Below are positions 2,130 to 62,492 of a DNA stretch of 64,000 bases, one piece after another. Position 1 is the first letter of the stretch. The number at the start of each line of letters is the position of its first letter. The DNA is taken from assembly GCA_964638425.1 (NCBI GenBank), contig CAZWYM010000002.1:2547-66546 (forward strand), in the 5' to 3' direction. Below the pieces are notes generated by a model. It was given only the letters and a program-made list of their open reading frames with translations, did no database searches and was not told the origin of the DNA. Both the position numbers and the translations under genes were made by a program. Origin of the DNA: an uncultured Candidatus Saccharibacteria bacterium. GTDB lineage: Bacteria; Patescibacteriota; Minisyncoccia; Phycocordibacterales; UBA918.

Positions 2130-2260
2130 TGTAACTGGTGAGCCGTTTCACTACGAATCAGTGACTACACTCTCCGTTCGCGGTACTCCCAAAGACTCGC
2201 TTTCCGTCACTTTTCTCATAGAAAAGTTTGATCGGCGCGTCTAGATTTACTCAAAATGAG
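2130..2260 (-). repeat. degenerate R1-like element 3' of the inserted gene 2380-2910
   Basis: ...ctccgttcgcggtactcccaaagactcgct-[acttttctc atag aaaagt]-ttgatcggcgcgtc; partial similarity only. Confidence 0.35.
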
Positions 2261-3086: not shown

Positions 3087-3146
3087 ATAGAAAGTTTTAT
3101 CGTATTCAATTACTTAGTCTTCTTCTCTGATTCCTTTTGGAGGGGA

Positions 3147-3235
3147 AGGGTCAAGTTGCTAATTCGCTACGCTTATAAGTAAGCACTTCCTCCCCGGACT
3201 CGCCACTTTTGCATTAGTAATAGCAAAAGTATGGC
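3147..3235 (-). repeat. R1 structured-repeat copy H (sense on the minus strand, 3' of rplE)
   Basis: ttgctaattcgctacgcttataagtaagcacttcctccccggactcgcc-[acttttgc attagtaat agcaaaagt]-atggctccgtctc. Confidence 0.6.
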
Positions 3236-3289
3236 TCCGTCTCTTTCCATTGCCGAACGAGAAACTGTTCTCATTCTAAAAATAGTAAA

Positions 3290-8980: not shown

Positions 8981-9174
8981 TCTACTTCCTTTCAATGAAC
9001 AATATTGAAAATATTATAACATATATTTTGAATAAAGCAAAAATACCCCAAGCGGGGGGTATTTTCTTTATGCATGATTCTTTTAATATACAGCTTGGGT
9101 CTCAAAATCTATTTTGAATAAGATTTTGAGACAGACTCAGAAAATATAATCGCTACGCTCTTTATTTTCTGGCC

Positions 9175-9270
9175 ACATGGTTCCGTCTTGGTTCTCGATA
9201 CGTACCTACCTTGAGGCAGGTACTAGAGAATAAAAAATACCTCGCATATGCGAGGTATTTTTTATTCTAC
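9175..9270 (-). repeat. R2 repeat copy 1 (two tandem hairpins, one a 44-bp palindrome at 9226-9269)
   Basis: About 90% identical to 14679-14793 and 15015-15133: acatggttccgtcttggttctcgatacgtacct..aggcaggtactagagaataaaaaatacctcgcatatgcgaggtattttttattct. Confidence 0.85.
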
Positions 9271-9274
9271 CTAC

Positions 9275-9392
9275 TTCGTCACGAATTGCTAAATAAAATA
9301 GCCACCTTGCGGTGGCTATTTTATTAATCATTCGCGACCCCGCCTCGCGGTGCGCCTCATTTTGAATGAGGCTCACAACGCTCCGGCTTGGC
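9275..9392 (-). repeat. R1 structured-repeat copy G (sense on the minus strand), with an extra hairpin at 9291-9325
   Basis: Contains ...tcgcgaccccgcctcgcgg-[gcctcattttgaatgaggc]-caacgctccggc, homologous to copies C, D and E. Confidence 0.7.
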
Positions 9393-9427
9393 GGACTGAA
9401 AATACATATGTATTTCCCTAACGTCCG

Positions 9428-14678: not shown

Positions 14679-14793
14679 CTCCGCTCCGTGCGACATGGTT
14701 CCGTCTTGGTTCTCGATACGTACCTGCCTCAAGGCAGGTACTAGAGAATAAAAAATACCTCGCATATGCGAGGTATTTTTTATTCTCTATCGA
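14679..14793 (-). repeat. R2 repeat copy 2 (46-bp perfect palindrome at 14744-14788)
   Basis: See R2 copy 1. Ends with tattctctatcga, which equals the last codons plus stop of rplB. Confidence 0.85.
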
Positions 14794-14799
14794 CCACGT

Positions 14800-14895
14800 C
14801 ACGAGTTACTAAATTCGCTTCGCTCATTAAGTACTCGCGACCCCACCTCGCTCGTTTTTGTCTCCTTATGGTCGACAAAACATCGCTCCGGTTTG
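14800..14895 (-). repeat. R1 structured-repeat copy C (sense on the minus strand)
   Basis: The reverse complement reads aaccggagcgatg-[ttttgtc gaccataaggaga gacaaaa]-aacgagcgag-gtggggtcgcgagta-cttaatgagcgaagcgaatttag. Confidence 0.8.
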
Positions 14896-15014
14896 TAAGC
14901 AGGTCGGGAGCAAAGCCTTTTGTATCTACCGACTTCGTCACTGGTTTCTAAGTAAAATAATTGCAGAGCAATCATTTCGCTAAGAACCATCGACCCCGAC
15001 TCACCTGTCGTACT

Positions 15015-15133
15015 CGCTCCGCTCCGTGCGACATGGTTCCGTCTTGGTTCTCGATACGTAACTGCCTCAAGGCAGTTACTAGAGAATAAAAAATACCTCA
15101 CACATGTGAGGTATTTTTTATTCTCTATCGAGA
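15015..15133 (-). repeat. R2 repeat copy 3, immediately 3' of rplB; its palindrome at 15081-15126 overlaps the rplB TAG stop at 15125-15127
   Basis: Same structure as copies 1 and 2, with compensatory substitutions: cctcGcaTatgCgagg becomes cctcAcaCatgTgagg, and gtacCtgcc..ggcagGtac becomes gtaActgcc..ggcagTtac. Confidence 0.85.
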
Positions 15134-15985
15134 ACCACCCATTATTTTTCCTGGCTTGCGACGGGAAACAATGAATGTGTTTGAGTACTTCTTTGGACTT
15201 CGTGTCTTTTGACCCTTTCCAGTTGGACGTCCTTGCTTTGTTCGAGCATGTCGGTGTCCTCGTGGTGCGCGTCCTTCTCCTCCTCCGTATGGATGGTCTA
15301 CTGCGTTTCGTGCACTTCCTCGTGTCTTTGGTCGCACACCTCGTTGTCGTGCGCGCCCTGCCTTACCGAGAGTAATCAAACGATATTCTTCGTTTGAAAC
15401 TTCACCGATAGTTGCCCAACAGGTGCTGAGAATTCGTCGAATTTCAGATGAAGGCATCTTCACGAGTGTGTACCCTGCGTCTTGTGCAACAACTTCAGCC
15501 TTATTTCCTGCAGACCGCGCGATTCGTGCACCTGCTCCTGGCTTAAGCTCGATTGCAAAAACAAAGGTACCTACTGGGATATTCCCAAGCGGTAGACGAT
15601 TTCCTGACTTTGGCTTTGCTGTTTCTGAAACAATAAATTCATCTCCCTTTACCATCCCCTTTGGTGCGAGAACGTATCTTCGTTCACCATCCTTAAAGAG
15701 AACGAGTGCGATGAATCCTGAACGGAATGGATCGTATTCAATTGATTCTACAATCGCAGGAATATCCTTTTTATTGTAGACAAAATCTACTTCACGGTAT
15801 GTACGCTTATGTCCACCTCCTCGGTAGAGATTTGTAGTACGTCCTGTGCTATTTCGTCCTCCAGTACTTCTTCGTCCTTGTGTAAGACTCTTGAGTGGGG
15901 CGTTTTTCTTTGTCGTGAGGACTTCTCGGTATGACACTACGGTCATTCCACGTCGTCCCGCTGATGTTGGTTTATATTTTTTCAC
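15125..15985 (-). CDS. rplB: 50S ribosomal protein L2; apparent GTG start
   Basis: 286 aa; ...GRNSTGRTTNLYRGGGHKRTYR...HPYGGGEGR... are L2 signatures. Confidence 0.9.
   Translation of the reverse strand: MKKYKPTSAGRRGMTVVSYREVLTTKKNAPLKSLTQGRRSTGGRNSTGRTTNLYRGGGHKRTYREVDFVYNKKDIPAIVESIEYDPFRSGFIALVLFKDGERRYVLAPKGMVKGDEFIVSETAKPKSGNRLPLGNIPVGTFVFAIELKPGAGARIARSAGNKAEVVAQDAGYTLVKMPSSEIRRILSTCWATIGEVSNEEYRLITLGKAGRARQRGVRPKTRGSARNAVDHPYGGGEGRAPRGHRHARTKQGRPTGKGQKTRSPKKYSNTFIVSRRKPGKIMGGSR
15135..15324 (-). repeat. native rplB 3' segment that forms the 190-bp direct repeat with 9428-9617
   Basis: Direct comparison of the two stretches. Confidence 0.9.
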
Positions 15986-21627: not shown

Positions 21628-21649
21628 CTAGGCTTCCTCAATATCTTTC

Positions 21650-21745
21650 AGCGTCAGGTTTCTAAACTCACCACGTTCGTTAAGAACCTCCTGCCCGGCC
21701 TCACGGTTTCGTCTCCTTGCGGTCGACGAAACATCGTTCCGGCTT
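21650..21745 (-). repeat. R1 structured-repeat copy D (sense on the minus strand, 3' of fusA)
   Basis: The reverse complement reads agccggaacgatg-[tttcgtc gaccgcaaggaga gacgaaa]-ccgtgag-gccgggcaggaggtt-cttaacgaacgtggtgagtttagaaacctgacg. Confidence 0.8.
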
Positions 21746-21888
21746 TTGTCAAGGACTGAAGAAGCTTACGCTTCTTCTTCAATATCCTTCCCTCCTTACA
21801 GGAGCAGTACACCTTGTGGATATTTTGTTTCGTTAGGATTCACAAAATACCTCACAAGCTCGGTAAAAGATATATCGAAGCAATAACT

Positions 21889-26199: not shown

Positions 26200-26317
26200 A
26201 TCTTCCGAGAATGTGGTCTTTAGACGACAACTCGTGATATTTTTTCGCTTTGTCCTCAAAAATATCTACGAGTTCCTGTAAAAGTTTCGATATTGTCGCT
26301 ACGCTCTGTATCTCACT

Positions 26318-33296: not shown

Positions 33297-33303
33297 CTTC
33301 GAT

Positions 33304-33337
33304 CTCTCAACCGCATCACTCTGTGATGCGGTTTTTT
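33304..33337 (+). terminator. hairpin ccgcatcac-tctg-tgatgcgg plus T7; 34/34 identical to 34029-34062
   Basis: Exact repeat seen directly in the sequence. Confidence 0.7.
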
Positions 33338-33414
33338 ATTGACTTGAAAAAGCGCATATGGTTTCATTCAGAAAGCACTCATTCTTGTTCATCGAAAATT
33401 TAAGGAGAACTACC

Positions 33415-34020
33415 ATGCAGAGGAGTATTTTTGTGTTACTTATCTTGTACGCCCTATTACCTCGACTCACCTTAGCAGAGGACTTGTCTCAACCATGCAA
33501 CACTTTTAACCCAGAGGCACAAACTTTCACCCCGTGCATTCCTGGAAATGAAATTGATGTTCGTAATGTATCTCAAGAGCTTCGCGAGCAAGGAATCACT
33601 CCCGACTCAGAAATTTTTGCTTCTGTATTAAAAGGACATGAGTATGTTATTACAAATTTGCAAATGCAGTTATCTCTCAGTTACACACCGGAAACAGGCT
33701 TCCACACGACCGTTAAAACACCGCGAGCACTCGAATTGATTCACGATTATTTCTTTCTTATATTAAATAGTTTTGCAGTAATTTCAGGGCTTATCACAAC
33801 GAGTCGGTGGTGGATACGTCCATTCTCTCTTGGACTCAGTATCTTAGTACCAATTTTTGGAGTCATCCAATTTATACGCGGGTACTCACTGTATTGGTTC
33901 CCTGTTGTTCCAATCGCTCTTGTCTCAATTTGTCTTGAATTTATTGTGTACCTTATATCCAGAGAGAAAAGGCCGGAAATCATAAGTCTAGTATCAAAAA
34001 TCAGACTGATAAAATGGTAA
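33415..34020 (+). CDS. membrane protein with signal peptide and C-terminal TM helices (201 aa)
   Basis: SD taaggagaac before the ATG at 33415. Flanked by the identical hairpins. Confidence 0.45.
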   Translation: MQRSIFVLLILYALLPRLTLAEDLSQPCNTFNPEAQTFTPCIPGNEIDVRNVSQELREQGITPDSEIFASVLKGHEYVITNLQMQLSLSYTPETGFHTTVKTPRALELIHDYFFLILNSFAVISGLITTSRWWIRPFSLGLSILVPIFGVIQFIRGYSLYWFPVVPIALVSICLEFIVYLISREKRPEIISLVSKIRLIKW

Positions 34021-34028
34021 ATATTCTT

Positions 34029-34062
34029 CTCTCAACCGCATCACTCTGTGATGCGGTTTTTT
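34029..34062 (+). terminator. second identical copy of the ccgcatcactctgtgatgcggttttttt hairpin
   Basis: Exact repeat. Confidence 0.7.
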
Positions 34063-34077
34063 TAAATGATATCGACT

Positions 34078-34250
34078 AGCGTCAGGTTTGTAATTCGCTA
34101 CGCTCATATTCCGACTTACAGTCGCAGTACACCTTTCGCAGAAATTGCTCAAGGTCTTGCGAAGCTCAAAGTATTCGCTTCTCACCTCCCCGGTCTCATT
34201 CATTTCGCCATTATGAATAGGCGAAATATCATTCCGACTCATAGTCGATA
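34078..34250 (-). repeat. R1 structured-repeat copy F (longer variant, sense on the minus strand, 3' of recJ)
   Basis: cgtcaggtttgtaattcgctacgctcat ... ctcacctccccggtctc-[atttcgcc attatgaatag ggcgaaat]-atcattccgactcat. Confidence 0.65.
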
Positions 34251-34276
34251 TCATTTAAAAAATAAAACAATTCATT

Positions 34277-35998
34277 TTAAATGACATCGACTATGCGTAA
34301 TCTTGTCTCAAGTCTTCCCATAAAAAATGAACGCTCAATATGTGCAAGGAGGGTAACTGATTTCCCCGCCTCGGGGAGAACAGCAAAATCAGTCGGCAGT
34401 TTAAAAAAACAAATAGCATCAAACCGTTTGTTCTTTGTAATGATTTTAAGTTTTGTGTGATTTTTTGTTTTCCCAAAAATCGAAACATCTTGCGGAATCA
34501 CATCTTGTATTTCAAAAAGTGGCTTTGGGTTCCCAATACCAAATGGAGCGAGCGAATCGAGTGTTCGGAGAAGTCCGTCATCAACATCGTCCATGGTAAT
34601 TCGCGCGTCTATTGGTTGTCCCTGACTCGGAACAAACGCATCAGTCTTGAGTGATTCGTAAGCGGTAATGAGTGCTTCTGAAAGTGTGTGTATCCCCTCA
34701 TGACTCACCGAGAAACCTCCCGACGCGTGATGCCCCCCGAATGTGAGAAATGAGTCTGGGGTTGCCTCCATGAGTTCAACAATACTAATAGTCCCTTCAC
34801 TACGACAGGAACCTTTGATGATTCCTTTACCGTCGCGACCCCAGAGAAACGCGGGGCGATTAAATTCTTCCGCAAGAGAGTTCGCAACGAGTCCAACGAG
34901 TGACGGACGCCATTCTGGATTTCCCATGACAATGACGTGAGGGAGTTCTTCAAGAGCGCTCATCCGTTTCTTTGCCTCTTTAACCATACTTGCTACAACC
35001 CCCTTTCTTTCATTGTTAAGTTTTTCGAGATGGAGAACATGTCCTCCAGCCTCAACTTCGTCACGTGTGCGTAACATATGAAAAGCGTTCTCAGGAGTAT
35101 CCATGCGTGACGCTGCATTAATGCGTGGGGCGATGGTAAAACCGATATCATCTTCAGTGAGATGCCTCTGGCTACCACCCGCCTTTCGTAAAAGATGTTG
35201 CAACCCAGGTCGCCCAGACTTCCGCAACACCGACAAACCAAAACGAGCGAGGACCCGATTCTCGTTGGTGAGAGGAACCATATCGGCGACTGTTGCAAGG
35301 GCAACGAGGTCGAGCCACCACTTCTCCATACCATCCTTCAGTGTAATCTGCCCGCTTATTTTCCCTTTTTCAAGAATTGCCTGAACGAGCTTAAACGCAA
35401 CAGTTGTTCCACAAATACCATTAAACGGGTACGCATCATCTCGTTTTGGGTTGATGACAGCAAAGGCGGGAGGGAGCGTTTCACTCGGTTCGTGGTGATC
35501 GGTAACAATAACATCAATACCTAGTGCATTTGCAGCAGAAACAGCATCGTGGTCAGTAATCCCACAATCAACCGTAATAATGAGTGATGCGTTTCGCTCC
35601 TTAAACTGTGGAACGGAATCTGCATTAAATCCGTACCCTTCTTCATGTCGATGGGGAATATAATTTTCAAAATTTAGATACCCGATTGCAGTAAAGAAGT
35701 CATGGAGAAGTACTCCTCCAGGAATTCCATCACAATCATAATCGGTATAAATGACGATATGCTCGTCATTAAGAAACGCTCTCAAGATTCTTTCGGTCGC
35801 CTTCTCCATATCGGTAAGGAGAAAGGGGCTATGCAAATCTGTCTCATAGTTCGGAGCCATGAAAGCGCGCGCTCGTACTCCGTCGGTGATTCCTCTATTA
35901 AAGAGAAGTTGCTGTGTGAGTGGTGTGTACTCAGTAAGTTCTTGCGCAACAGACTCCGGGAGTGTTGGCGAGAGAGTGTATGTCCGCGATGTCGCCAT
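34277..35998 (-). CDS. recJ: single-stranded-DNA-specific exonuclease RecJ (DHH/DHHA1)
   Basis: 573 aa; DYDCDGI, DHH-type motifs and a C-terminal OB-like region. Confidence 0.8.
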   Translation of the reverse strand: MATSRTYTLSPTLPESVAQELTEYTPLTQQLLFNRGITDGVRARAFMAPNYETDLHSPFLLTDMEKATERILRAFLNDEHIVIYTDYDCDGIPGGVLLHDFFTAIGYLNFENYIPHRHEEGYGFNADSVPQFKERNASLIITVDCGITDHDAVSAANALGIDVIVTDHHEPSETLPPAFAVINPKRDDAYPFNGICGTTVAFKLVQAILEKGKISGQITLKDGMEKWWLDLVALATVADMVPLTNENRVLARFGLSVLRKSGRPGLQHLLRKAGGSQRHLTEDDIGFTIAPRINAASRMDTPENAFHMLRTRDEVEAGGHVLHLEKLNNERKGVVASMVKEAKKRMSALEELPHVIVMGNPEWRPSLVGLVANSLAEEFNRPAFLWGRDGKGIIKGSCRSEGTISIVELMEATPDSFLTFGGHHASGGFSVSHEGIHTLSEALITAYESLKTDAFVPSQGQPIDARITMDDVDDGLLRTLDSLAPFGIGNPKPLFEIQDVIPQDVSIFGKTKNHTKLKIITKNKRFDAICFFKLPTDFAVLPEAGKSVTLLAHIERSFFMGRLETRLRIVDVI

Positions 35999-36960: not shown

Positions 36961-37137
36961 AATTGTATTTCCATATTTATAAAATAATGGATTTGAGGGC
37001 AGTTCGAGGTGAGAAGCGAATACTTGAAGCTTCGCAAGACCTTGAGCGAATTCTGCGAAAGGTGTACAGCTTCTGTAAGAAGAGAGCTCACTCGCGTCTC
37101 TTTAACTTCAAAGCAACAAAGAAATGCTTTACATGCA

Positions 37138-39038: not shown

Positions 39039-39167
39039 AATACCTTTATTTTATCATGTCAGTACAAAAACCACGATTTGATGGAGTGTGCTCATTCGTC
39101 CAGCGATTTGCCCTGAGGCAGAACAAATCGGGACATACATTCGCAATAGTCGCTACAGTTCCTTTGC

Positions 39168-40625
39168 TTATTCAATCTCGCGCCACTCGATGAATTCGTA
39201 GGTATCAGAAACGGTAGGGGTGAGCGGTGGCGGGTCTGCTACAAGTTTACGGTCGTATGAATTCGTTCGTGTATTAAAACCAGACGTAAAGACTCCTCCA
39301 GAAGTCCATTTCGTCCCCTCACGACCGTTCGAAACAATAGTTCCATTCACGGTAAGCGACGTTCGGGTTACATACGGATCGAGCGCATCGGGCAACCCTT
39401 GATTTCCTCCCGTTGAACTACAGTCATTTGTACAATAGTGATTTCTACCAAATCTACCGTTTTGAGCAACAAAAATCCCATTGAGTGTCAATGTTGCAGG
39501 GACCACAAGTCCCACAAGGACATCTTGTTCAGCAATTGCAAGAAGCCCTGAAGTTGCATTTGCATAGGTGATATTATCGTTGAGGATTATTGACGGACTT
39601 ACTCCTACAGTGTCGACATCTGCTGCTGCGATAGTAACTCTCCCTCTTACGACACCTTCTAGCCATACCTTATCTTCAACAAAGATAATTGAACAACTTG
39701 TTGGTATCACGTAGTTCGCAAGAAACGTACTTGCACTGATGACATGTCGCTCCTGGACCCATCCGGCCTCAGTGGTGTACCCCCAGTATAAAGTTGTCCC
39801 AGTCACTCGATACACATCGATGGTTCCATTTGTTTTAAACACTACTCGATACCCAGATGCACCTGACGGGCCAATGTATTGACCTCCACCTGACTGAGCT
39901 TTTACCTGCATTGCAGAAAGATCAACCGTTAAACCGGTAAAATTTATAGGAGTTGAGGGGAAATTCCAGAAACTACTGTTTGGTCCGCCACCATACACAC
40001 CATCTACGGTTGCTCCGGTTGCTCCAGGTGAACATGATATTGAACCGTCACACACCCAGTTTTCTTGCCCGCTCGTTACCGTTGAAAGGTTGGTACCATC
40101 CATTCGAATGACTCCATTTGAGTGGTACGGACCAATAATGGTTCTGTCAGCGCCTGCCCATACATTTGAATTAATGATATAGGCATACTCTGAAACGGTT
40201 GGTTGTGCGTACCTCCCATACACTGTTCGGGTTATATTAGGATTGTCATAGGTATGTCCTGTTGAGGTGATATCGATTGCGTACGCACTTCCGCATGCCG
40301 TAGAACTCGCTATAGAAAGTGAGAACTCTCCAATGTCTGTCCCCTCAGGATCTGTATATACGTGCACGTATGGACCTGCAGTTGTGGTTCCATTGGTCAC
40401 ATTTCCGGGGTAGTGTGCCAAAAACCACTTATAGTAATCAAGTCCAGCTTCAGCAATGTTGAGCGCTTGCTCTTTACTATATTTTGCTTTGGTAACATGC
40501 GACTGCGTTACCACATAGCCGACAAAGGCTGCAGTCATAGTAAAAAAGATTGCACCAAAGACAAGGACAAGGACAAGAAGATACCCTGATGCTTTCTGTT
40601 GTGTCGTTGGTTCCATACTATTCAT
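39168..40625 (-). CDS. large pilus-associated protein with N-terminal TM (PilX-like, no E+5)
   Basis: 485 aa; N-terminal ...ASGYLLVLVLVFGAIFF. Ends the pilB-pilC-pilin operon and overlaps the upstream prepilin gene by 8 nt. Confidence 0.45.
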   Translation of the reverse strand: MNSMEPTTQQKASGYLLVLVLVFGAIFFTMTAAFVGYVVTQSHVTKAKYSKEQALNIAEAGLDYYKWFLAHYPGNVTNGTTTAGPYVHVYTDPEGTDIGEFSLSIASSTACGSAYAIDITSTGHTYDNPNITRTVYGRYAQPTVSEYAYIINSNVWAGADRTIIGPYHSNGVIRMDGTNLSTVTSGQENWVCDGSISCSPGATGATVDGVYGGGPNSSFWNFPSTPINFTGLTVDLSAMQVKAQSGGGQYIGPSGASGYRVVFKTNGTIDVYRVTGTTLYWGYTTEAGWVQERHVISASTFLANYVIPTSCSIIFVEDKVWLEGVVRGRVTIAAADVDTVGVSPSIILNDNITYANATSGLLAIAEQDVLVGLVVPATLTLNGIFVAQNGRFGRNHYCTNDCSSTGGNQGLPDALDPYVTRTSLTVNGTIVSNGREGTKWTSGGVFTSGFNTRTNSYDRKLVADPPPLTPTVSDTYEFIEWREIE

Positions 40626-51987: not shown

Positions 51988-52590
51988 ATGCAATCAAAAG
52001 AATCACAAATAAATAGCTACCTCGTCCCAATGGTTATCGAAAAGACCCAGGCTGGAGAACGTGCTTTCGACATATTTTCTCGACTCCTCAAAGAACGTAT
52101 CATTTTCGTTACTGGAGGTATAGATGACCACATGGCAAATCTTATTGTTGCGCAACTTCTCTTCCTTGAAGCTGAAGACCCAAAAAAGGATATTTTCATG
52201 TATGTTAATTCCCCAGGAGGTTCTGTAAGTGCAGGACTTGGTATTGTCGACACTATGAATCACATCAAGCCTGATGTCGCTACTGTTTGTGTTGGTCTCG
52301 CTGCATCAATGGGTTCTATCATCCTCTCACAGGGAGCGAAAGGAAAGCGAAGTATCCTGCCTAATGCAGAAGTTATGATTCACCAACCATGGGGAGGAAC
52401 ACAGGGCCAAGCGACTGATATTGAAATTACCGCTCGCCATATTCTCCGTACACGAGATACCCTCAACAAAATGCTCGCTAAGGCAGCAGGTAAGCCACTT
52501 GCGCAAATTGAAAAAGACACTGACCGAGATTTCTTCATGACTGCTGAAGAAGCAAAGAAATATGGCTTAGTCGATACTATTCTAAAATAG
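51988..52590 (+). CDS. clpP: ATP-dependent Clp protease proteolytic subunit
   Basis: ...[18 protein letters not shown]...AASMGS...MIHQP... The Ser-His-Asp triad context is present. Start trimmed to the ATG at 51988. Confidence 0.9.
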
Positions 52591-52600
52591 TATCGACTAA

Positions 52601-52695
52601 GAGCCGGAGCGATGTGAACCCTATTAATAATGGGTGAACCAGCGAGGCCGGGGAGAAACCACTTATGAACGAAGTGAATTAGTGAGTTGACCCTG
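52601..52695 (+). ncRNA. R1 structured-repeat copy A (plus sense, 3' of clpP); putative ncRNA or 3'UTR element
   Basis: gagccggagcgatgtga-[accc tattaataat gggt]-gaaccagcgag-gccggggagaaacc-acttatgaacgaagtgaattag. It is flanked by the clpP stop-overlapping palindrome (52559-52600) and by the terminator at 52746-52775. Confidence 0.6.
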
Positions 52696-52745
52696 GTCGA
52701 TACCATCCTTAAGTAGTCTATGCCTTTTTAAGCTCAAACAACGTC

Positions 52746-52775
52746 CCTCTTCGGGACGTTGTTTTGTATTCGACA
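52746..52775 (+). terminator. hairpin aaacaacgtccc-tcttc-gggacgttgtttt
   Basis: Perfect stem plus T tract upstream of rny. Confidence 0.6.
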
Positions 52776-52859
52776 CACCCCTATTATTCTGTTACTGTAT
52801 GAAAGTCGACACAGAAATGAAAGACTTCGACATTGTCCACTATAAGTAATCAGAAAAGT

Positions 52860-54383
52860 ATGCCAATCGAAATGATTTTTGCCCTCGTGGCAGGAGTACT
52901 CGGCATCGCTTTAGGATATTATCTCAGATACATACACGCACTCAGTAAGAAAGAATCAATTGAAATCTCAATTAAAGAACGTGTTGTTGAAGCAGAAGAA
53001 AAGGCTATAAAGATAATTGAACGAGCAGAAGCAAAGTCCGAGACGCTCGAAAAAGAGAAAAAACAAGAGTTTAAAGAACTTGAAGAGAAGTTAGGAAAGA
53101 CCGAGGAACGACTTATCCGTAAGGAGGAACTACTCGATAAACGCCAGATTGACGTCGATTCACAAATTGAATCAGTTCGAGAGAAGATTGAGCAAATAAA
53201 AGACATCAAAACACGGCTCGATGAGCGGGAAAAGAGTATTGATGTACAAATCGAAACCGTTGCAGGCCTTTCAAAGGATGATGCATATGAACGACTCGTG
53301 AGTATCGTTGAAAAGGAGCGAGAACTCGATATTCTTGGACGACTCCAAAAACTGCAAGTTCGCGGTGACGAACAATTTGATGAACAAGCAAAAAATATCC
53401 TTACCTCAGCAATTCACCGCATTGGGAACACCCTTCGCGTTGATATCATGAGTTCAACCATTGAGCTCCCGAGTGATGAGATGAAAGGAAAAATTATTGG
53501 AAAGGAAGGAAGAAATGTCCGTGCATTTGAGCGCGCAACGGGAGTAGATGTACTCATTGATGATACTCCTGGGCACATTACCCTCTCATCATTTGACCCT
53601 GTTCGTCGAGAAATAGCTCGAGTTGCTCTCGAAACACTTCTCAGTGACGGGCGTATCCAGCCTGCGAAAATTGAAGAAGTTGTCGAAAAAGCACGAGCAG
53701 AGGTGGGCACCATCGTAAAGAAGATGGGAGAAAAGGCTGCGTATGAAGCAGGTGTTGCAAATCTACATCCAGATCTCGTGAAGATTCTTGGACGACTCCA
53801 CTTCCGCACAAGTTACGGACAGAATGTTCTCTGGCACTCTGTAGAAATGGCACACATTGCTGCCATCATTGCAGAAGAAATTGGTGCAGACGTTGCTGTC
53901 GCTCGCGCTGGCGCTCTCCTTCATGACATTGGTAAGACAGTGAGTCAGGAAGTACAGGGTACTCACGTAGAAATTGGTATCCGCATCCTCGAGAAATACG
54001 ATGTTGATGAAAAAGTCATCATCGCAATGCGTGCACACCACGAGGAATATCCATATGACACCCCTGAGTCAATCATCGTACAAGTAGCTGACGCTATTTC
54101 AGGAGGTCGCCCAGGTGCACGTCGTGATTCAATCGAGAATTACATTAAACGACTTAAAGAGCTTGAAGATCTTGCTCTCTCAATACCTGGTGTTGAGAAG
54201 GCGTTTGCCATCCAAGCAGGACGTGAGGTACGTGTCATCGTCAATCCAGAAAAGATAACCGACTTAGAAGCGCTCAATTTGGCGCGAAGTCTCGCAACCG
54301 ATATTGAGGAAAAGCTTAGATATCCTGGAGAAATTAAGGTGAATGTTATACGGGAATCTCGTGCTATAGAGTACGCCCGGTAA
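52860..54383 (+). CDS. rny: ribonuclease Y
   Basis: N-terminal TM, coiled coil, KH (GKIIGKEGRNVRAFE) and HD (LLHDIGK) domains. Start trimmed to the ATG at 52860. Confidence 0.8.
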   Translation: MPIEMIFALVAGVLGIALGYYLRYIHALSKKESIEISIKERVVEAEEKAIKIIERAEAKSETLEKEKKQEFKELEEKLGKTEERLIRKEELLDKRQIDVDSQIESVREKIEQIKDIKTRLDEREKSIDVQIETVAGLSKDDAYERLVSIVEKERELDILGRLQKLQVRGDEQFDEQAKNILTSAIHRIGNTLRVDIMSSTIELPSDEMKGKIIGKEGRNVRAFERATGVDVLIDDTPGHITLSSFDPVRREIARVALETLLSDGRIQPAKIEEVVEKARAEVGTIVKKMGEKAAYEAGVANLHPDLVKILGRLHFRTSYGQNVLWHSVEMAHIAAIIAEEIGADVAVARAGALLHDIGKTVSQEVQGTHVEIGIRILEKYDVDEKVIIAMRAHHEEYPYDTPESIIVQVADAISGGRPGARRDSIENYIKRLKELEDLALSIPGVEKAFAIQAGREVRVIVNPEKITDLEALNLARSLATDIEEKLRYPGEIKVNVIRESRAIEYAR

Positions 54384-54396
54384 GCCACCTAGCTTA

Positions 54397-54439
54397 AGAA
54401 TAAAGCGCTATTACTATAGGTAATAGCGCTTTATTCTTT
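54397..54439 (+). terminator. hairpin aagaataaagcgctattac-tatag-gtaatagcgctttattctt
   Basis: Perfect 19-bp stem after rny. Confidence 0.6.
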
Positions 54440-54640
54440 ATTCCTTACAGGAACCCTCCACTCATTGGATTTTATTCATTCTTCATAAAATCTCAATGAG
54501 TCTTGCGAAAGTGTCCCGCACTTTCTCACCTCGTATCTGAGCCCCTTTTGTGTTTACCTTAGAAATTTTTGCAGAGAAACTTCCATGCAAAGGGCGAGTG
54601 GAAAAAATTACAACACACATAATTACACTCCGGTAGTATA

Positions 54641-54668
54641 TTGCACAACTGAAACCGTACTATATAAT
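54641..54668 (+). promoter_or_regulatory. sigma70-like promoter TTGCAC-16-TATAAT upstream of hup
   Basis: -35 at 54641-54646, -10 at 54663-54668. The leader to hup would be about 140 nt. Confidence 0.4.
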
Positions 54669-54806
54669 TGTTTGTAGCCACATTTTGGCATCACGTGCAT
54701 TGCACAAGTAGGACTTACGCATTTGGACGCAGTTCCAAAAAAGAAATGCCCCAAACGCGCAAGTCCTAAAATCATTAATCGCCATTAGTACATCATTTCA
54801 TATACT

Positions 54807-55079
54807 ATGAACAAGGCAGACATAATTGATAAAGTACACGAGGTTGTAGGAGGAACTCGAGCAGATGCAGAACGAGCAGTTGAAACAGCGATCGATTGTA
54901 TCGTTGATTCTTTGAAGAAAGGAAAGGAAGTATCAATCGCAGGATTGGGTATTTTCTCTTCAAAGACTCGAAACGCTCGAACAGGACGTAACCCACGTAC
55001 TGGTGAATCAATCGATATCCCAGCTATGCGAGTTCCAAAGTTCCGTGCAGCAAAGGCACTTAAGGATGCAGTAAAATAA
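54807..55079 (+). CDS. hup: DNA-binding protein HU
   Basis: 90 aa; ...GLGIFSSKTRNARTGRNPRTGESIDIPAMRVPKFRAAKALKDAV. Confidence 0.85.
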   Translation: MNKADIIDKVHEVVGGTRADAERAVETAIDCIVDSLKKGKEVSIAGLGIFSSKTRNARTGRNPRTGESIDIPAMRVPKFRAAKALKDAVK

Positions 55080-55092
55080 ATCTCTCCTTTAT

Positions 55093-55128
55093 AAAAAATC
55101 CCGCAAGCAAATGCTTGCGGGATTTTTT
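55093..55128 (+). terminator. hairpin aaaaaatcccgcaagc-aaat-gcttgcgggatttttt
   Basis: Perfect stem plus T tract after hup. Confidence 0.7.
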
Positions 55129-55337
55129 ATATCCACATCTACTCCACATATTTCAATTTTTATAACTAGTGATACAATAATGGAGTAGCGGAGGTATTAA
55201 CTTGGTTTCATGTACACCAAGTCAACGTTACATACAAAGAGGTATAGAATGTTTAGTTCTATGTCTCACCACAACAAAAGCCCCACGCGAGGGGCTTTTG
55301 TGTTGTATAAAATTAGAAATTTTATACAACACAAAAG

Positions 55338-55430
55338 AAACGAGCGATGTGAGGGACTATTCATAATGTCCCGAACCAGCGAGTTCGGGTAGGTAAATCT
55401 TATGAGCGAAGCGAATTAGATTTGGACGCT
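55338..55430 (+). ncRNA. R1 structured-repeat copy B (plus sense, 3' of hup), sandwiched between two long hairpins
   Basis: aaacgagcgatgtga-[gggac tattcataat gtccc]-gaaccagcgag-ttcgggtaggtaaat-cttatgagcgaagcgaattag. Stem nucleotides are compensatory relative to copy A. Confidence 0.6.
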
Positions 55431-55616
55431 TTGTGTTTTAGAGTGATTCAATATCACTCTAAAACACAAAAGCCGACCTTGTCAGATGTTTTTCCGCAAA
55501 GCAGGAAAAAGATCAACAAGGTGTACCGTCCCTGTAAGGGAATTTTGTGTTGGGGGCTTGCGCAGGTAGACTCCCCTTGATACGCTCAACTAAGGTATAC
55601 ACTACGAGGAGTTCTT

Positions 55617-55876: not shown

Positions 55877-56053
55877 AAATCGAAACTTACAGTTTCAGTA
55901 CACCTTGCGGGTACTTTGCTACATTACATTCGCAAAGATACCACGCAAGGTCTTCGATTCCTCAAGTACGATGCCCCGCGGAATCGTCCCGCTTTTTGAC
56001 CAATTTTAATTATGACTGAAAGGAATTAGAAAAATGGAAATACTCTTGTGGTG

Positions 56054-56130
56054 CTAATTCACTACGTTCATAAGAACGCTGGACGCGACTCGCAGGCCCA
56101 GAGGGTCCCCTGCTCCGTCGTTCGATTCCT
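56054..56130 (-). repeat. R1 structured-repeat copy I (sense on the minus strand, 3' of tRNA-Gly-UCC)
   Basis: The reverse complement ends ...cagcgttcttatgaacgtagtgaattagcac. The 5' end is degenerate and includes the inverted copy of the tRNA 3' end. Confidence 0.55.
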
Positions 56131-56153
56131 CTTGCTCGCTACAAATACGCAAC

Positions 56154-56187
56154 AACGCCGACACTTTCGTGTCGGCGTTGGCGTTTT
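56154..56187 (-). terminator. hairpin aacgccgacac-tttc-gtgtcggcgtt plus T tract, immediately 3' of tRNA-Gly
   Basis: Perfect 11-bp stem. Confidence 0.6.
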
Positions 56188-56189
56188 TG

Positions 56190-56260
56190 TGCGAGCAAGA
56201 GGAATCGAACCCCCATCCACTGCTTGGAAGGCAGTTGTTTTACCACTAAACTATGCTCGC
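56190..56260 (-). tRNA. tRNA-Gly (anticodon UCC), no encoded CCA
   Basis: Folded by hand: acceptor gcgagca/tgctcgc, D arm gttt/aaac, anticodon stem actgc/gcagt with loop cTTCCaa, T loop ttcgatt. Confidence 0.8.
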
Positions 56261-61523: not shown

Positions 61524-61556
61524 AAGCCTTTGTTCCATGTGGAACAAAGGCTTTTT
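61524..61556. terminator. hairpin aagcctttgttcca-tg-tggaacaaaggcttttt; its stem contains one GTTCCA-NN-TGGAAC repeat unit
   Basis: Perfect 14-bp stem. Confidence 0.6.
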
Positions 61557-61595
61557 GTTTCACGTGGAACAAAATATACCTGTTCCACGTGGAAT

Positions 61596-61991
61596 CTATT
61601 CAAAAACCACATTATCAAGCATATGCACCTGCGCAAACTTTCTACGTGGAACTAAACGTACGGTAAGAATATCAATCTGAAATTCCCCAGTATATTTCCT
61701 ATCTGCAAGCCATGATTGAATTGTATTCTTCAACCTCCTTATCTTCTCATTATGCACATTCTCCTCAGGTCGCCACGTTTCATGTGAAACAGCATACTTT
61801 AATTCCTGTGTTGTTTCATATGAAACGGTTTTTACCTCGATAAAGTGAATTTTTCTTGTTTCACGTGCAACAATATCAATTTCCCCGTATTTCTTAAGGT
61901 AATTTCGGTCAATAATTTCATACCCATTAGAAACAAGCCATTTTGCTCCCAGATCCTCACCAATTTTTCCTATTTCGTTATGTTTAGCCAT
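61596..61991 (-). CDS. YraN-family (UPF0102) putative endonuclease
   Basis: ...GEDLGAKWLVSNGYEIIDRNYLKKYGEIDIVARETRKIHFIEVKT matches the YraN core (GEDLA..G..I..RN.R...GEIDLIA....VFVEVK). Confidence 0.65.
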   Translation of the reverse strand: MAKHNEIGKIGEDLGAKWLVSNGYEIIDRNYLKKYGEIDIVARETRKIHFIEVKTVSYETTQELKYAVSHETWRPEENVHNEKIRRLKNTIQSWLADRKYTGEFQIDILTVRLVPRRKFAQVHMLDNVVFE

Positions 61992-62281
61992 GTCGCTTCA
62001 TGTGGAACTATATAACAGAAGATACATTCATGCCAGTGTTTCACGTGAAACAATAACAAATATAATATATTGCGATATAATCGTTGATCTGTATGTTATT
62101 AGCCATTTTTTAAGGACATATTTATTAAAATTTTTGTCCTTTATACACATATCAACTCGTTTATCCCCAGTTATCCACCATGTGGATTTCTAGTAGAGGA
62201 TTTGTCTTTTATGGGGTAGGGGGATCGAAAGCTTACTTGAACAAAATCGAAACCTGACGGTTACTAATAACCAGTACTTGG

Positions 62282-62375
62282 TGTCAGGTTTCTAAGTTCG
62301 TTACACTCACTAAGAACCTCCTACCCGACCTCGCGGTTTCGCCATAAATTATAGGCGAAACATCGCTCCGGTTCA
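62282..62375 (-). repeat. R1 structured-repeat copy E (sense on the minus strand, 3' of tRNA-Gly-GCC), with an extra 3' hairpin at 62249-62290
   Basis: The reverse complement reads aaccggagcgatg-[tttcgcc tataatttatg ggcgaaa]-ccgcgag-gtcgggtaggaggtt-cttagtgagtgtaacgaacttagaaacctgaca. Confidence 0.8.
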
Positions 62376-62383
62376 CAAAACTA

Positions 62384-62411
62384 AAAAACACTGCGTAGGC
62401 AGTGTTTTTCT
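62384..62411 (-). terminator. hairpin aaaaaacactgc-gtag-gcagtgtttttc 3' of tRNA-Gly-GCC
   Basis: Perfect stem with A/T tracts. Confidence 0.6.
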
Positions 62412-62421
62412 TTACGTTTTG

Positions 62422-62492
62422 TGCGGCCAGGGGTAATCGAAACCCCGACTAATCCTTGGCAAGGACTCGTTATACCACTTAACCATGGCCGC
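62422..62492 (-). tRNA. tRNA-Gly (anticodon GCC), no encoded CCA
   Basis: Hand fold: gcggcca-tg-gtta-agtggta-taac-g-agtcc-tTGCCaa-ggatt-agtc-ggggt-ttcgatt-acccc-tggccgc-a. Confidence 0.8.

What the first reader, a model, noticed from the sequence alone, without database searches (positions are those of the whole stretch)
52601..52695. Dispersed ~100-120-nt structured repeat family (R1) with a covarying hairpin, almost always placed just 3' of a gene in sense orientation
The family has conserved flanks around a variable, perfectly paired hairpin, and the stems differ between copies by compensatory changes that keep pairing. Copies are at 2130-2260 (degenerate), 3147-3235, 9275-9392, 14800-14895, 21650-21745, 34078-34250, 56054-56130 and 62282-62375 on the minus strand, and at 52601-52695 and 55338-55430 on the plus strand. 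Fragments lie at about 6990-7280, 14896-15000, 26040-26300 and 39100-39170. The sense consensus is (A)GCCGGAGCGATG-[hairpin, AT-rich loop often containing TAAT/ATAAT]-RAMCSNGCGAG-GYCGGG.AGG(A/T)...-CTTA(N~18)TTAG(AAACCTGACGCT). Hairpin examples are accc/gggt, gggac/gtccc, ttttgtc/gacaaaa, tttcgtc/gacgaaa, tttcgcc/ggcgaaa and atttcgcc/ggcgaaat. Every well-preserved copy lies immediately downstream of a gene on the same strand: clpP, hup, rplB, fusA, recJ, rplE, tRNA-Gly-UCC, tRNA-Gly-GCC, the rplB pseudo-fragment/GH15, and the orphan gene 2380-2910. There are no terminal inverted repeats, no conserved ORF and no associated transposase. I could not match the motif to any riboswitch, ribozyme or RNA family I know. 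The orientation bias and covariation point to an RNA-level function such as a 3'UTR stability or processing element, a 3'-derived sRNA, or a structured terminator module. An alternative is a mobile element that targets terminators.
Basis: seen in the sequence. Interest (0 to 1): 0.8.

Follow-up and report, generated by a model that had tools for sequence, protein, structure and literature searches.

The report
Structured RNA element copying gene ends
A folded RNA element of about 110 bases, absent from the RNA family database, sits behind tRNA and housekeeping genes of ultra-small (CPR/Patescibacteria) bacteria, and most well-preserved copies are framed by a reverse copy and a spare forward copy of the end of the gene they follow, which suggests a new kind of small mobile or intron-like element.

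Summary
A covariance model finds 8 copies in the window, and 3 more degenerate ones are visible by eye. All 11 lie in the sense orientation behind a gene.

The same fold recurs in 110 copies from about 90 loci, almost all from Patescibacteria. In these, 92.9% of cells are paired against 68% in shuffles, and 30 of 31 pairs show compensatory changes. One G·U pair is conserved, so the structure is RNA on the sense strand. Rfam 15 has no match and the literature searches found no description.

- host 3' end (A);
- a hairpin;
- an inverted copy of that end (A');
- a three-way-junction core;
- a second direct copy of the host end (B).

A' and B form the closing helix P1. Of the 110 copies, 81 follow a same-strand tRNA and none an opposite-strand one. 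In about 25 tRNA cases B starts exactly at T-loop position C56.

Two identical copies behind different tRNA-Ser genes, each with its own repeat, and a nested insertion both point to copying to new sites. Behind clpP, B kept the peptide LVD(T/V)ILK* in five lineages, with changes almost only at synonymous sites.

Best reading: a new, protein-less mobile RNA element. An intron-like reading is not excluded.

The parts
52588..52704 (+). R1 copy behind clpP. Three-way-junction core (about 52602-52692) plus P1 flanks. This is the copy in the finding.
   Evidence: cmsearch E=1.7e-6. The MFE fold gives P1, Pa/Pb/P2 and P3, z=-3.7.
52567..52590 (+). A: the last 8 codons of clpP (LVDTILK*). Forms the 5' arm of a 16-bp hairpin with A'.
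52586..52601 (+). A': an inverted copy of the clpP end (AATAGTATCGACTAAG). Forms the 5' strand of P1.
52693..52716 (+). B: a second, in-frame copy of the clpP end (LVDTILK*) with 5 synonymous codon differences from A. Forms the 3' strand of P1 and is followed by the terminator at about 52735-52765.
55324..55440 (+). R1 copy behind hup and its terminator.
   Evidence: cmsearch E=0.03. Sequence.
55295..55337 (+). A (55295-55314), loop and A' (55318-55337): a 20-bp hairpin built on the T-run of the hup terminator.
55429..55443 (+). B: a diverged direct copy of the terminator T-run (CTTTGTGTTTTAGAG).
62270..62387 (-). R1 copy behind tRNA-Gly(GCC) at 62422-62492. The best-scoring window copy.
   Evidence: cmsearch E=1.2e-10; tRNA
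62374..62423 (-). tRNA trailer A (62399-62423), apex CTAC and inverted copy A' (62374-62394): a terminator-like long hairpin directly 5' of the core.
56054..56141 (-). Degenerate R1 core behind tRNA-Gly(UCC), preceded at 56121-56141 by a perfect 21-nt inverted copy of the tRNA 3' end (T54 to the 3' end; A = 56190-56209).
   Evidence: Not a model hit.
21640..21758 (-). R1 copy behind fusA (EF-G).
   Evidence: cmsearch E=1.5e-8
21746..21789 (-). Second version of the EF-G C-terminus (KDIEEEA*, 21766-21789) plus its inverted copy and hairpin (21746-21765).
21628..21648 (-). B: third version of the EF-G C-terminus (KDIEEA*), followed by a terminator. The gene's current end (KDIETEE*, 21919-21945) has its own terminator.
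14787..14906 (-). R1 copy behind rplB.
   Evidence: cmsearch E=3.5e-8
14936..15047 (-). Degenerate second R1 copy in tandem, upstream of the previous one.
   Evidence: cmsearch E=0.007; sequence
15017..15139 (-). A block: the rplB stop region plus a 115-nt terminator block.
   Evidence: the repeat finder D1
14679..14797 (-). B block: a second copy (96%) of the rplB stop region plus terminator block, directly after the core.
9267..9402 (-). R1 copy behind a 190-nt, 99% identical copy of the rplB 3' end (9414-9617). That copy ends in a different version of the last codons (GGGR*, 9418-9432).
   Evidence: cmsearch; blastn
9161..9277 (-). B: a stop-region-like segment plus a third copy of the terminator block.
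3137..3256 (-). R1 copy behind rplE.
   Evidence: cmsearch E=5.3e-5; Pfam L5
3247..3307 (-). A (rplE end LPLQK*, 3290-3307), A'1 (3276-3286), a small hairpin, and A'2 (3247-3255).
3110..3148 (-). B: an in-frame second version of the L5 C-terminus (LPLQKESEKKTK*). 4 of the 5 shared codons are changed synonymously.
34060..34294 (-). R1 copy behind recJ. It comprises A (IVDVI*, 34275-34294), A' (34241-34260), a core interrupted in P3 by an R2 repeat (34114-34188), and B (LVDII*, 34060-34079).
   Evidence: R2 (I1, D7). Not a model hit because of the insertion.
2130..2260 (-). Very degenerate R1-like copy behind ORF 2380-2910.
   Evidence: By eye only. Weak.

Best explanation
R1 is a previously undescribed, protein-less, non-autonomous mobile element whose active form is a structured RNA.

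**Shown.**
- It lies in the sense orientation behind its host gene, so co-transcription is possible where no terminator intervenes.
- It folds into a three-way junction. One arm is Pa, a GGA/GA internal loop, Pb and P2. The second is a long P3 ending in a GAGCGnnGCGA hairpin. The third is P1.
- P1, the closing helix, is not part of the conserved sequence. It forms between A', an inverted copy of the host gene's 3' end, and B, a direct copy of that end placed right after the conserved 3' terminus (G)UGAC.
- The host gene keeps a complete 3' end (A) upstream, so the insertion is harmless.
- In tRNA genes B begins exactly at C56 of the T-loop.
- Hosts include tRNAs, rpsR, rpsI, rplB, rplE, fusA, clpP, hup and recJ.

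**Inferred.**
- New copies arise by copy-and-paste that depends on transcription. The likely route is template switching or reverse transcription of the element RNA onto host 3' ends, followed by recombination into the gene.
- Fold-back copying at a terminator-like hairpin generates A'.
- The conserved fold is what the copying or processing machinery recognises.
- Spread between similar tRNA genes may need only homology between the flanking repeats.
For: - **Fold and covariation:**. One G·U pair is kept in 90 of 110 copies.
- **Not a known RNA family:**
- **Wide distribution in Patescibacteria MAGs:**
- **Orientation:** 81 to 0 behind tRNAs, with a modal gap of 32-34 nt. All 11 window copies are in sense.
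- **Flank statistics:** an exact A:A' inverted repeat of at least 10 nt in 52 of 103 copies against 10 of 512 controls. A direct repeat A/B of at least 14 nt in 36 of 103 against 2 of 512.
- **Left edge of the repeat at T55|C56** in about 25 tRNA cases.
- **Recent copying:** L107 holds two 100% identical elements behind tRNA-Ser(cga) and tRNA-Ser(tga), each with its own 19-nt repeat. L013 and L058, from the same MAG, share a similar P3 but have their own repeats.
- **Nested insertion** with a 43-nt repeat in L076, and tandem arrays in L112, L049 and L044.
- **Three stacked EF-G ends and a triplicated rplB terminator block** in the window.
- **clpP site filled or empty:** filled in the window, L123, L124, L211 and L213; empty in L127 and L215-L218.
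- **About 10 copies in 64 kb** of a reduced genome.
- **Long palindrome** from the tRNA T54 through the trailer hairpin and back at 56121-56209.
- **Host gene identities:**
Against: - No reverse transcriptase, integrase or transposase is linked to the element. None is among the 40 window ORFs scanned. The one RT found next to a clpP gene (L215) does not recur in the other fetched loci or the window.
- Window copies are only about 80% alike, so there is no very recent burst here.
- The clpP insertion looks old and vertically kept, with compensatory changes in Pa and Pb. That argues for a function maintained in place rather than pure selfishness.
- No single known mechanism yields A - hairpin - A' - core - B. 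The fold-back and template-switch steps are conjecture.
- The repeat length varies from 8 to about 120 nt, unlike a transposase footprint.
Confidence: 0.5

Rival explanations
1. Intron-like element. The stretch from A through the core is removed from the transcript, by self-cleavage plus ligation or by host enzymes guided by A'. The gene body is then joined to B, which is the real 3' exon. A is a spare end that keeps unspliced RNA functional and stops ribosomes before the fold.
For: - Behind clpP, B keeps LVD(T/V)ILK* in five lineages whose clpP third-codon positions are about 47-50% diverged. There are at least 14 synonymous events against 1 non-synonymous (T to V, a natural variant), while only about 26% of random changes would be synonymous.
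- The same pattern holds for rpsR in L070 (4 differences, all synonymous) and for window rplE, recJ and fusA.
- The core keeps its fold at this site through compensatory changes (Pa GCC/GGC to GGC/GCC or GUC/GAC).
- The core|B junction is exact.
- One guide, A', can pair with both A and B, so both junctions could be presented to one active site.
- Patescibacteria are unusually rich in introns (PMC13011429).
Against: - A always carries its own stop codon or a complete tRNA 3' end, so splicing is not needed.
- In fusA and rplB a full intrinsic terminator lies between A and the core.
- In several tRNA copies B is incompatible with the upstream tRNA body (L111, L010).
- No known ribozyme or intron model matches.
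- All contigs carrying the exact ClpP protein show the unspliced arrangement.
- The coding-like pattern in B could also arise if A or B came from another lineage's allele, or from selection on the element to match conserved target positions.
Confidence: 0.2
2. Host-useful 3' module. R1 is a cis-acting RNA that stabilises, processes or terminates the upstream transcript, or yields a 3'-derived small RNA. It spread passively by duplication and gene conversion between similar 3' ends.
For: - Strong purifying selection on the structure over long divergence.
- Constant position 32-34 nt behind tRNAs.
- Hosts are mostly translation-related or housekeeping genes, presumed highly expressed.
- A:A' hairpins resemble extended terminators, and L128 has such a hairpin without a core.
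Against: - It is present behind only some tRNAs and differs between close relatives.
- Nested, tandem and degenerate copies exist.
- Copies sit downstream of complete terminators.
- Duplication of host ends is not needed for a stabiliser.
- Identical copies occur at non-homologous flanks.
Confidence: 0.15
3. DNA-level integrative element. A trans-acting site-specific recombinase integrates a small circular or folded single-stranded DNA that carries its own copy of the target. The recombinase could be a tyrosine integrase of the class that crosses over in the tRNA T-loop, or an integron-like enzyme acting on folded ssDNA. This is the same way genomic islands restore the tRNA 3' end.
For: - A direct repeat from the T-loop to the tRNA 3' end is the classic footprint of T-loop-class integrases (my own knowledge; Williams 2002).
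- Tandem arrays at one site resemble tandem ssrA islands (PMC3146451, listed; abstract only).
- Two different versions of the gene end at protein-gene sites fit an element-borne copy.
Against: - No integrase was found.
- Dozens of different targets would need a programmable enzyme.
- The conserved G·U pair and strict sense orientation point to RNA.
- At about 150 nt the element is too small for a double-stranded circle.
- In fresh copies both repeats equal the resident sequence.
- The attC R'/R'' boxes are absent from the consensus.
Confidence: 0.1

Closest known systems
Genomic islands and integrative elements that target tRNA or tmRNA genes (tyrosine integrases, T-loop sublocation)
   Same: Inserted at the 3' part of a tRNA gene. 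The gene stays intact. There is a direct repeat from the T-loop to the 3' end, and tandem arrays occur at one site.
   Different: R1 is about 110-170 nt with no integrase. It has many different targets, including stop-codon regions of protein genes. It carries an extra inverted copy of the target, an RNA fold with covariation and G·U, and strict orientation with transcription.
Group II class C introns, and IS elements that insert behind terminator or REP hairpins
   Same: Found just 3' of a hairpin at gene ends, in sense orientation. Pairing between element and flank defines the site.
   Different: R1 has no group II domains and no Rfam hit. It is 5-20 times smaller, has no RT ORF, and the host end is duplicated.
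SINEs and retrozymes (non-autonomous retroelements with structured or tRNA-related RNA and variable target-site duplications)
   Same: Small and non-coding, with a structured RNA, a variable-length flanking direct repeat and dependence on host transcription.
   Different: R1 has no hammerhead, poly-A or internal promoter. No partner RT is known. The repeat starts at a fixed structural position (C56), and an inverted target copy is present.
Bacterial small dispersed repeats (REP/BIME, ERIC, Correia, BOX, RUP, RPE, MITEs)
   Same: Short, intergenic, many copies, able to fold, and found at 3' ends of genes.
   Different: R1 has no conserved terminal inverted repeats, no fixed short target duplication and no RAYT or transposase partner. 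It is conserved across a whole superphylum with RNA-type covariation.
Group I introns of Patescibacteria tRNA genes (PMC13011429)
   Same: Same host group. An RNA element in tRNA genes, with a guide that pairs with the flanking exon sequence.
   Different: R1 is not in the anticodon loop, has no P3-P9 core or G-binding site, and has no Rfam Intron_gpI hit. The host tRNA is complete upstream.
tRNA-like 3' tags of RNA replicons and the Neurospora Mauriceville retroplasmid (genomic-tag idea; my own knowledge)
   Same: A'·B can form an acceptor/T-arm-like minihelix with the 3' end of a tRNA. Retroplasmid RT is known to template-switch onto tRNAs.
   Different: Copies behind protein genes have no tRNA likeness. 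No RT is linked, and a CCA origin is not supported.

Membership tests
Any Rfam 15 family | Match at or above the family's gathering score | tested here: not met
   In the window and 15 loci only tRNA and LSU rRNA reach the gathering score. With E up to 10 there is no match on the two copies in 52400-55600.
MITE / IS-derived repeat | Conserved terminal inverted repeats | tested here: not met
   The ends of the conserved part (GAAAG-CCGG... and ...GUGAC) are not complementary. The flanking inverted pair A'/B differs at every locus and derives from the host gene.
MITE / IS-derived repeat | Short target-site duplication of fixed length | tested here: not met
   The direct repeat ranges from 8 to 43 nt, and to about 120 nt at rplB.
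MITE / IS-derived repeat | Cognate transposase somewhere in the genome | not testable with these tools
   Only 64 kb of the genome is held. None of the 40 ORFs scanned is a transposase.
Group I / group II intron | Conserved catalytic core (P3-P9, or domains I-VI) | tested here: not met
   No Rfam intron hit. The element is 89-140 nt with three helical arms.
Group I / group II intron | Interrupts the host gene so that splicing is required | tested here: not met
   ARAGORN finds a complete tRNA upstream of 81 copies. Protein genes keep their own stop codon in A.
Known small self-cleaving ribozymes (hammerhead, twister, twister-sister, pistol, hatchet, HDV-like, hairpin) | Family consensus core | tested here: not met
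   No Rfam match even at E up to 10. By eye, CUGAUGA...GAAA is not conserved: the UGA/GAA seen in two copies is UUU/AAA in most.
Integron attC site | R''/R' boxes (RYYYAAC ... GTTRRRY) and a location in a cassette array next to intI | tested here: not met
   The consensus ends are GAAAGCCGG and GUGAC. Hosts are housekeeping genes and tRNAs.
tRNA-targeting integrative element | Direct repeat of the tRNA 3' part flanking the insert | tested here: met
   A repeat from C56 to about position 74 or beyond in about 25 loci.
tRNA-targeting integrative element | Element-encoded or linked integrase | tested here: not met
   The insert is about 110-170 nt with no ORF. No integrase is among the 40 scanned window ORFs.
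Retroelement (SINE-like) | Partner reverse transcriptase | tested here: inconclusive
   One RVT_1 gene lies next to an empty clpP site (L215). tblastn finds it in no other fetched locus or the window. Whole genomes were not available.
Diversity-generating retroelement (TR/VR pair) | Differences between the two copies confined to adenines of one copy | tested here: not met
   In the window clpP pair, the A bases at the differing positions include T, T, A and A, and the B bases C, C, T and G, so the differences are not confined to adenines of either copy.

The most novel reading that the evidence does not exclude
R1 is a minimal RNA-catalysed mobile intron. In this reading a roughly 100-nt ribozyme uses one guide (A') to dock either of two look-alike helices (A·A' or B·A') next to its (G)UGAC / GAAAG junction. 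It could then cut and rejoin RNA at the 5' edge of each helix, excise as a small (possibly circular) RNA, and reverse the reaction into any RNA carrying the guide's complement. That would explain the exact C56 junction, the duplicated host end, and the coding-type conservation of both A and B.
Probability: 0.12. Interest if true: 0.97.

Novelty: categorically new. Interest (0 to 1): 0.85.

Why it matters
- **A new structured RNA family.** If confirmed, this is a widespread structured RNA in the Candidate Phyla Radiation, a large and poorly understood share of bacterial diversity.
- **A new insertion logic.** A protein-less element sits at the ends of tRNA and housekeeping genes and avoids harm by leaving the host a full copy of the displaced end.
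- **Two routes, both notable.** One is RNA-mediated copy-and-paste in bacteria that lack group II introns. The other is a very small intron-like RNA.
- **Annotation.** The element explains pseudo-fragments of ribosomal protein and EF-G genes, duplicated tRNA 3' ends and duplicated terminators in CPR genomes, which otherwise look like assembly or annotation errors.
- **Possible use.** A locus-matched (apparently re-templated) A' together with an exact junction could be of engineering interest.

Tried and rejected
1. **Known RNA families.** Rfam at gathering score and at E up to 10 gave nothing on the element.
2. **Phage or plasmid origin.** The viral-contig scan gave one hit in high-GC sequence without the rest of the element, judged to be chance.
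3. **Linked enzyme.** Pfam on 40 window ORFs found no transposase, integrase or RT. The RT next to clpP in L215 is not found in the other fetched loci or the window.
4. **More clpP loci from metagenomes.** Only relatives of 83% identity or less were returned, and none had R1. The model also missed the divergent L123 and L124 copies under default filters.
5. **RNA origin of the repeat via post-transcriptional CCA.** The repeat often ends N73-C(A). However, CPR tRNA genes without R1 also read N73-C-A, so this says nothing.
6. **Diversity-generating retroelement.** The differences are not adenine-specific.
7. **Other known systems.** Hammerhead, hairpin and HDV-like ribozymes, the group II D5 resemblance (GAGCCG...GCGAUG), attC sites, IS200/605 ends and TnpB/IscB guide RNAs, IS110 bridge RNA, T4 gene-60-type ribosome hopping and archaeal bulge-helix-bulge introns were each compared by eye with the consensus and anatomy. 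All were dropped because defining features are absent.
8. **Selection for B·A' pairing as the cause of the 3-periodic conservation of B.** Rejected, because mismatches at every third base leave no stable helix beyond 5-8 bp.
9. **Literature.** Six successful searches found no description. The Patescibacteria tRNA intron paper concerns group I introns at position 35/36.
Full report

The sequence at 52601-52695 reads as the finding says. Eight copies align with a 57% mean column identity.

To avoid circularity I built the covariance model only from copies in other genomes (40 sequences). With filters off it finds eight window copies:
- 62270-62387(-)
- 21640-21758(-)
- 14787-14906(-)
- 9277-9391(-)
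- 52588-52704(+)
- 3137-3256(-)
- 14936-15047(-)
- 55324-55440(+)

Three listed copies are visible only by eye. These are 34078-34250 (split by another repeat), 56054-56141 and 2130-2260 (both degenerate). The three 'fragments' are not model hits. By eye, 26040-26300 carries the P3-loop motif GAGCGTAGCGA, 39100-39170 only GTAGCGA, and 6990-7280 only a weak resemblance.

**2. Structure and covariation**

RNAalifold on the 40-sequence seed predicts 31 pairs, of which 24 have compensatory changes. On 110 model hits from 90 sources, 92.9% of cells are paired. This compares with 68.1% in column shuffles (0 of 500 reach it) and 30-44% when partners are slid by 1-3 columns. 30 of 31 pairs change on both sides.

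The fold is a three-way junction with these arms:
- P1, the closing helix;
- a long P3, whose tip is a small GA-flanked hairpin GAGCGnnGCGA with C-G to U-A covariation.

P1 and Pa are joined by (G)AAAG and Pa and P3 by GGGG. P3 runs straight into P1.

One G·U pair in P3 is kept in 90 of 110 copies, and another position alternates G-C and G-U. On the other strand these would be A·C mismatches, so the selected structure is RNA on the sense strand.

In the 18 hits that do not contain my search pattern, the conserved letters shrink to gaaag.cggAg ... cGAg.c.gGGtCg ... gtGacc. The invariance of CCGGAGCGATG in the larger set is therefore partly my own selection. Single-sequence MFE folds give the same junction (z from -2.3 to -6.2).

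**3. Where else is it?**

Roughly 85-90 of these carry the whole element. Almost all are Patescibacteria MAGs (Saccharibacteria, Paceibacterota, Kaiserbacteria, Yanofskybacteria and others). A few are labelled Elusimicrobiota, Bdellovibrionales or Gammaproteobacteria; I did not verify those labels. The remaining hits are chance matches in high-GC genomes.

The window's own ClpP is 90-98% identical to proteins that sources name Pacebacteria, Minisyncoccia and Kaiserbacteria. No Rfam family matches in the window or in 15 of the loci. Six successful literature searches found no description. The one paper on Patescibacteria tRNA introns concerns group I introns in the anticodon loop.

**4.

Most well-preserved copies sit between copies of the 3' end of the gene they follow.

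*tRNA genes (L019, L041, L028).* The tRNA is followed by a short hairpin, often with a CTGC apex. Next comes a stretch complementary to the tRNA T-arm (A'), then the core, then a repeat of the tRNA 3' end (B).

*Statistics over 103 copies.*
- The 21 nt before the core have an exact inverted match of at least 10 nt in the upstream 142 nt in 52 cases, against 10 of 512 when partners are exchanged between loci.
- The sequence after the core has an exact direct match of at least 14 nt upstream in 36 cases, against 2 of 512.

*Repeat edges.* In about 25 tRNA cases the left edge of the direct repeat is exactly T55|C56. The tRNA reads ggTT|CGAATCC and the element reads GAC|CGAATCC. The right edge lies 1 to 25 nt past the discriminator.

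*Position.* 81 of 110 copies have a same-strand tRNA within 400 nt upstream and none an opposite-strand one. The modal distance is 32-34 nt.

**5. The window copies show the same plan at protein genes**

- **clpP.** A = 52567-52590 (LVDTILK*). A' = 52586-52601, forming a 16-bp hairpin with A. The core follows. B = 52693-52716 again encodes LVDTILK*, with 5 synonymous codon differences.
- **rplE.** A ends LPLQK*. B reads LPLQKESEKKTK*, with 4 of 5 shared codons changed synonymously.
- **recJ.** A is IVDVI* and B is LVDII*.
- **fusA.** The gene ends KDIETEE* with its own terminator. Then come an R2 repeat, a second end KDIEEEA* with a hairpin, the R1 core, a third end KDIEEA* and a terminator.
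- **rplB.** The stop region plus a 115-nt terminator block occurs before and after two tandem R1 copies (96% identity). A third copy follows the R1 at 9267-9402. That R1 sits behind a 190-nt, 99% identical copy of the rplB 3' end whose last codons differ.
- **hup.** The duplicated target is the T-run of the terminator.
- **tRNA-Gly(UCC).** The tRNA 3' end, trailer and a hairpin are followed by a perfect 21-nt inverted copy back to T54 (56121-56141).

Hosts in other genomes include rpsR (L050, L070), rpsI (L006, L016) and fusA (L120). The hosts are mostly translation-related or housekeeping genes, presumably highly expressed.

**6. Evidence that copies are made at new sites**

- L107 has two elements that are 100% identical over about 140 nt, including a 55-nt 5' leader with a hairpin. 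They lie behind tRNA-Ser(cga) and tRNA-Ser(tga), and each has its own 19-nt repeat from C56 to C74. Here A' was carried along unchanged.
- L013 and L058, from the same MAG, have near-identical P3 domains behind tRNA-Ala and tRNA-Ser, each with its own repeat of 22 and 24 nt.
- In L076 a younger copy lies upstream of an older, diverged one. The 43-nt repeat spans the tRNA 3' end and trailer.
- Tandem pairs occur in L112, L049 and L044 and, from the hit list, in L015, L048 and L053.
- The clpP site is filled in the window, L123, L124, L211 and L213. It is empty in L127, L215/216, L217 and L218. L128 has only an 11-nt inverted copy of the gene end plus a terminator.
- More distant clpP loci (83% identity or less) have no R1.

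**7. An unexpected pattern: B evolves like coding sequence**

The five filled clpP lineages differ at 47-50% of third codon positions across the whole gene, so they separated long ago. Their B copies read:
- CTGGTCGATACCATCCTTAAGTAG
- CTGGTAGATACTATTCTCAAATAA
- CTAGTCGACGTGATTCTAAAATAA
- CTGGTGGACACCATTCTGAAATAA
- CTCGTTGACACTATTTTGAAATAA

All encode LVD(T/V)ILK*. At least 14 synonymous events are needed, against one non-synonymous change to a residue that occurs naturally in ClpP. Only about 26% of random changes would be synonymous.

Within each lineage A and B differ at 4-5 codons synonymously and at 0-1 non-synonymously. A' always matches its own A. The core at this site keeps its fold through compensatory changes (Pa GCC/GGC in the window, GGC/GCC in L123, GUC/GAC in L213).

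L070 rpsR shows the same pattern (4 differences, all synonymous), while L050 has A = B over 24 nt.

There are three possible explanations:
- B is translated, meaning the element is removed from some transcripts.
- The element excises often enough at the DNA level for B to be exposed to selection.
- One of the two copies was brought in from another lineage's allele.

In tRNA contexts B is not always kept. In L111 and L010, B is incompatible with the upstream tRNA. Removal therefore cannot be obligatory.

**8. How it most likely works**

*Shown:*
- a sense-strand RNA fold under selection;
- co-orientation with the host gene;
- a closing helix made from host-derived A' and B;
- an intact host 3' end upstream;
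- an exact core|B junction at C56 in tRNAs;
- recent and nested copies.

*Inferred:* the element is a non-autonomous mobile RNA element that is copied onto the 3' ends of abundant transcripts or their genes. The hairpin-centred palindrome (A - apex - A') is the footprint expected from fold-back priming or strand switching at a terminator-like hairpin. The variable-length direct repeat is what overlapping template switches or target-primed copying leave behind. Spread between similar tRNA genes may need only the homology of the repeats.

I put this at 0.5. The intron-like variant gets 0.2. It is favoured by section 7 and disfavoured by terminators between A and the core, and by dispensable B copies. 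A host-useful 3' module gets 0.15 and a recombinase-driven DNA element 0.1.

No enzyme is identified. None of 40 window ORFs is an RT, integrase or transposase. The RT beside clpP in L215 is not found in the other fetched loci or the window. There is no real viral hit.

**9. Comparison with known systems**

R1 works most like tRNA-targeting integrative elements, in that the gene end is restored and the repeat starts in the T-loop. It also resembles terminator-seeking group IIC introns and SINE-like retroelements. It fails the defining tests of each:
- no integrase;
- no intron core;
- no RT or poly-A;
- no terminal inverted repeats or fixed duplication;
- no attC boxes;
- no ribozyme consensus.

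The details are in the membership table. I therefore rate it as lying outside the known kinds. The caveat is that the machinery is unknown and the literature library searched is incomplete.

**10. Verdict**

The thing itself is a larger, host-end-capturing element found across Patescibacteria. Interest 0.85.

Noticed in passing
window 21794-21861(-), 34114-34188(-), 37006-37079(+), 55507-55539, 55885-55952; also L046, L213, L123: A second dispersed structured repeat (R2) with the conserved stretch AAGGTGTACTG-stem-TGTAA-stem and a covarying hairpin. It is inserted inside the P3 loop of R1 copies (window recJ copy, L213, L123) and also stands alone behind fusA. It may be a second mobile RNA element of the same genomes.
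   Followed up: partly
window 9414-9617 vs 15121-15324: A 190-204 nt copy of the rplB 3' end (99% identity) sits right behind the GH15 gene (9637-11601), far from rplB. Only its last ~30 nt differ (GGGR* instead of GGSR*). This mosaic suggests recombination between R1-bearing 3' modules.
   Followed up: partly
window 9125-9170, about 26284-26320, about 39140-39160: Solo copies or remnants of the R1 P3-tip hairpin. At 9125-9170 a short stem carries the loop GAGCGTAGCGA; 26284-26320 carries the same loop motif; 39140-39160 carries only GTAGCGA. None has the rest of the element. They are either remnants or an independent module.
   Followed up: no
window 33303-33337 and 34028-34062: Two 100% identical 35-nt terminator-like hairpins (TCTCTCAACCGCATCACTCTGTGATGCGGTTTTTT) flank ORF 33358-34020, which has no Pfam match. 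This hints that the gene is a recent insertion or cassette.
   Followed up: no
window 61527-62059: Four copies of a palindromic site, TGTTTCACGTG(G/A)AACA, around ORF 61596-61991 (UPF0102/NERD). It looks like a set of operator sites for a dimeric regulator.
   Followed up: no
L128/L130, just after clpP (locus 2103-2200): A clpP gene without R1 still has an 11-nt inverted copy of its own last codons (TTCTAAAATAA-GCTTCTGC-TTATTTTAGAA), followed by the same terminator that L124 carries inside its A'. It is either a remnant after loss of the core or a precursor state.
   Followed up: no
L215 192-878(-): A 228-aa reverse-transcriptase-domain gene (RVT_1) lies directly upstream of an R1-free clpP gene in a close relative. 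It is not found in any other fetched locus or the window.
   Followed up: partly
L123, about 2230-2560: The R1 copy behind clpP carries an insertion of about 300 nt in its P3 loop. This includes R2-like sequence, while the flanking P3 strands stay nearly identical to the window copy.
   Followed up: no
166 tRNA genes in the R1 loci: Many CPR tRNA genes, with or without R1 downstream, read discriminator-C-A instead of an encoded CCA or an unrelated trailer (for example CAC|AAA).
   Followed up: partly
L007, L076, L030, L013/L058/L079/L032: Full R1 elements occur in MAGs labelled Elusimicrobiota, Bdellovibrionales and Gammaproteobacteria. This reflects either mis-binning or mislabelling, or a distribution wider than Patescibacteria.
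   Followed up: no
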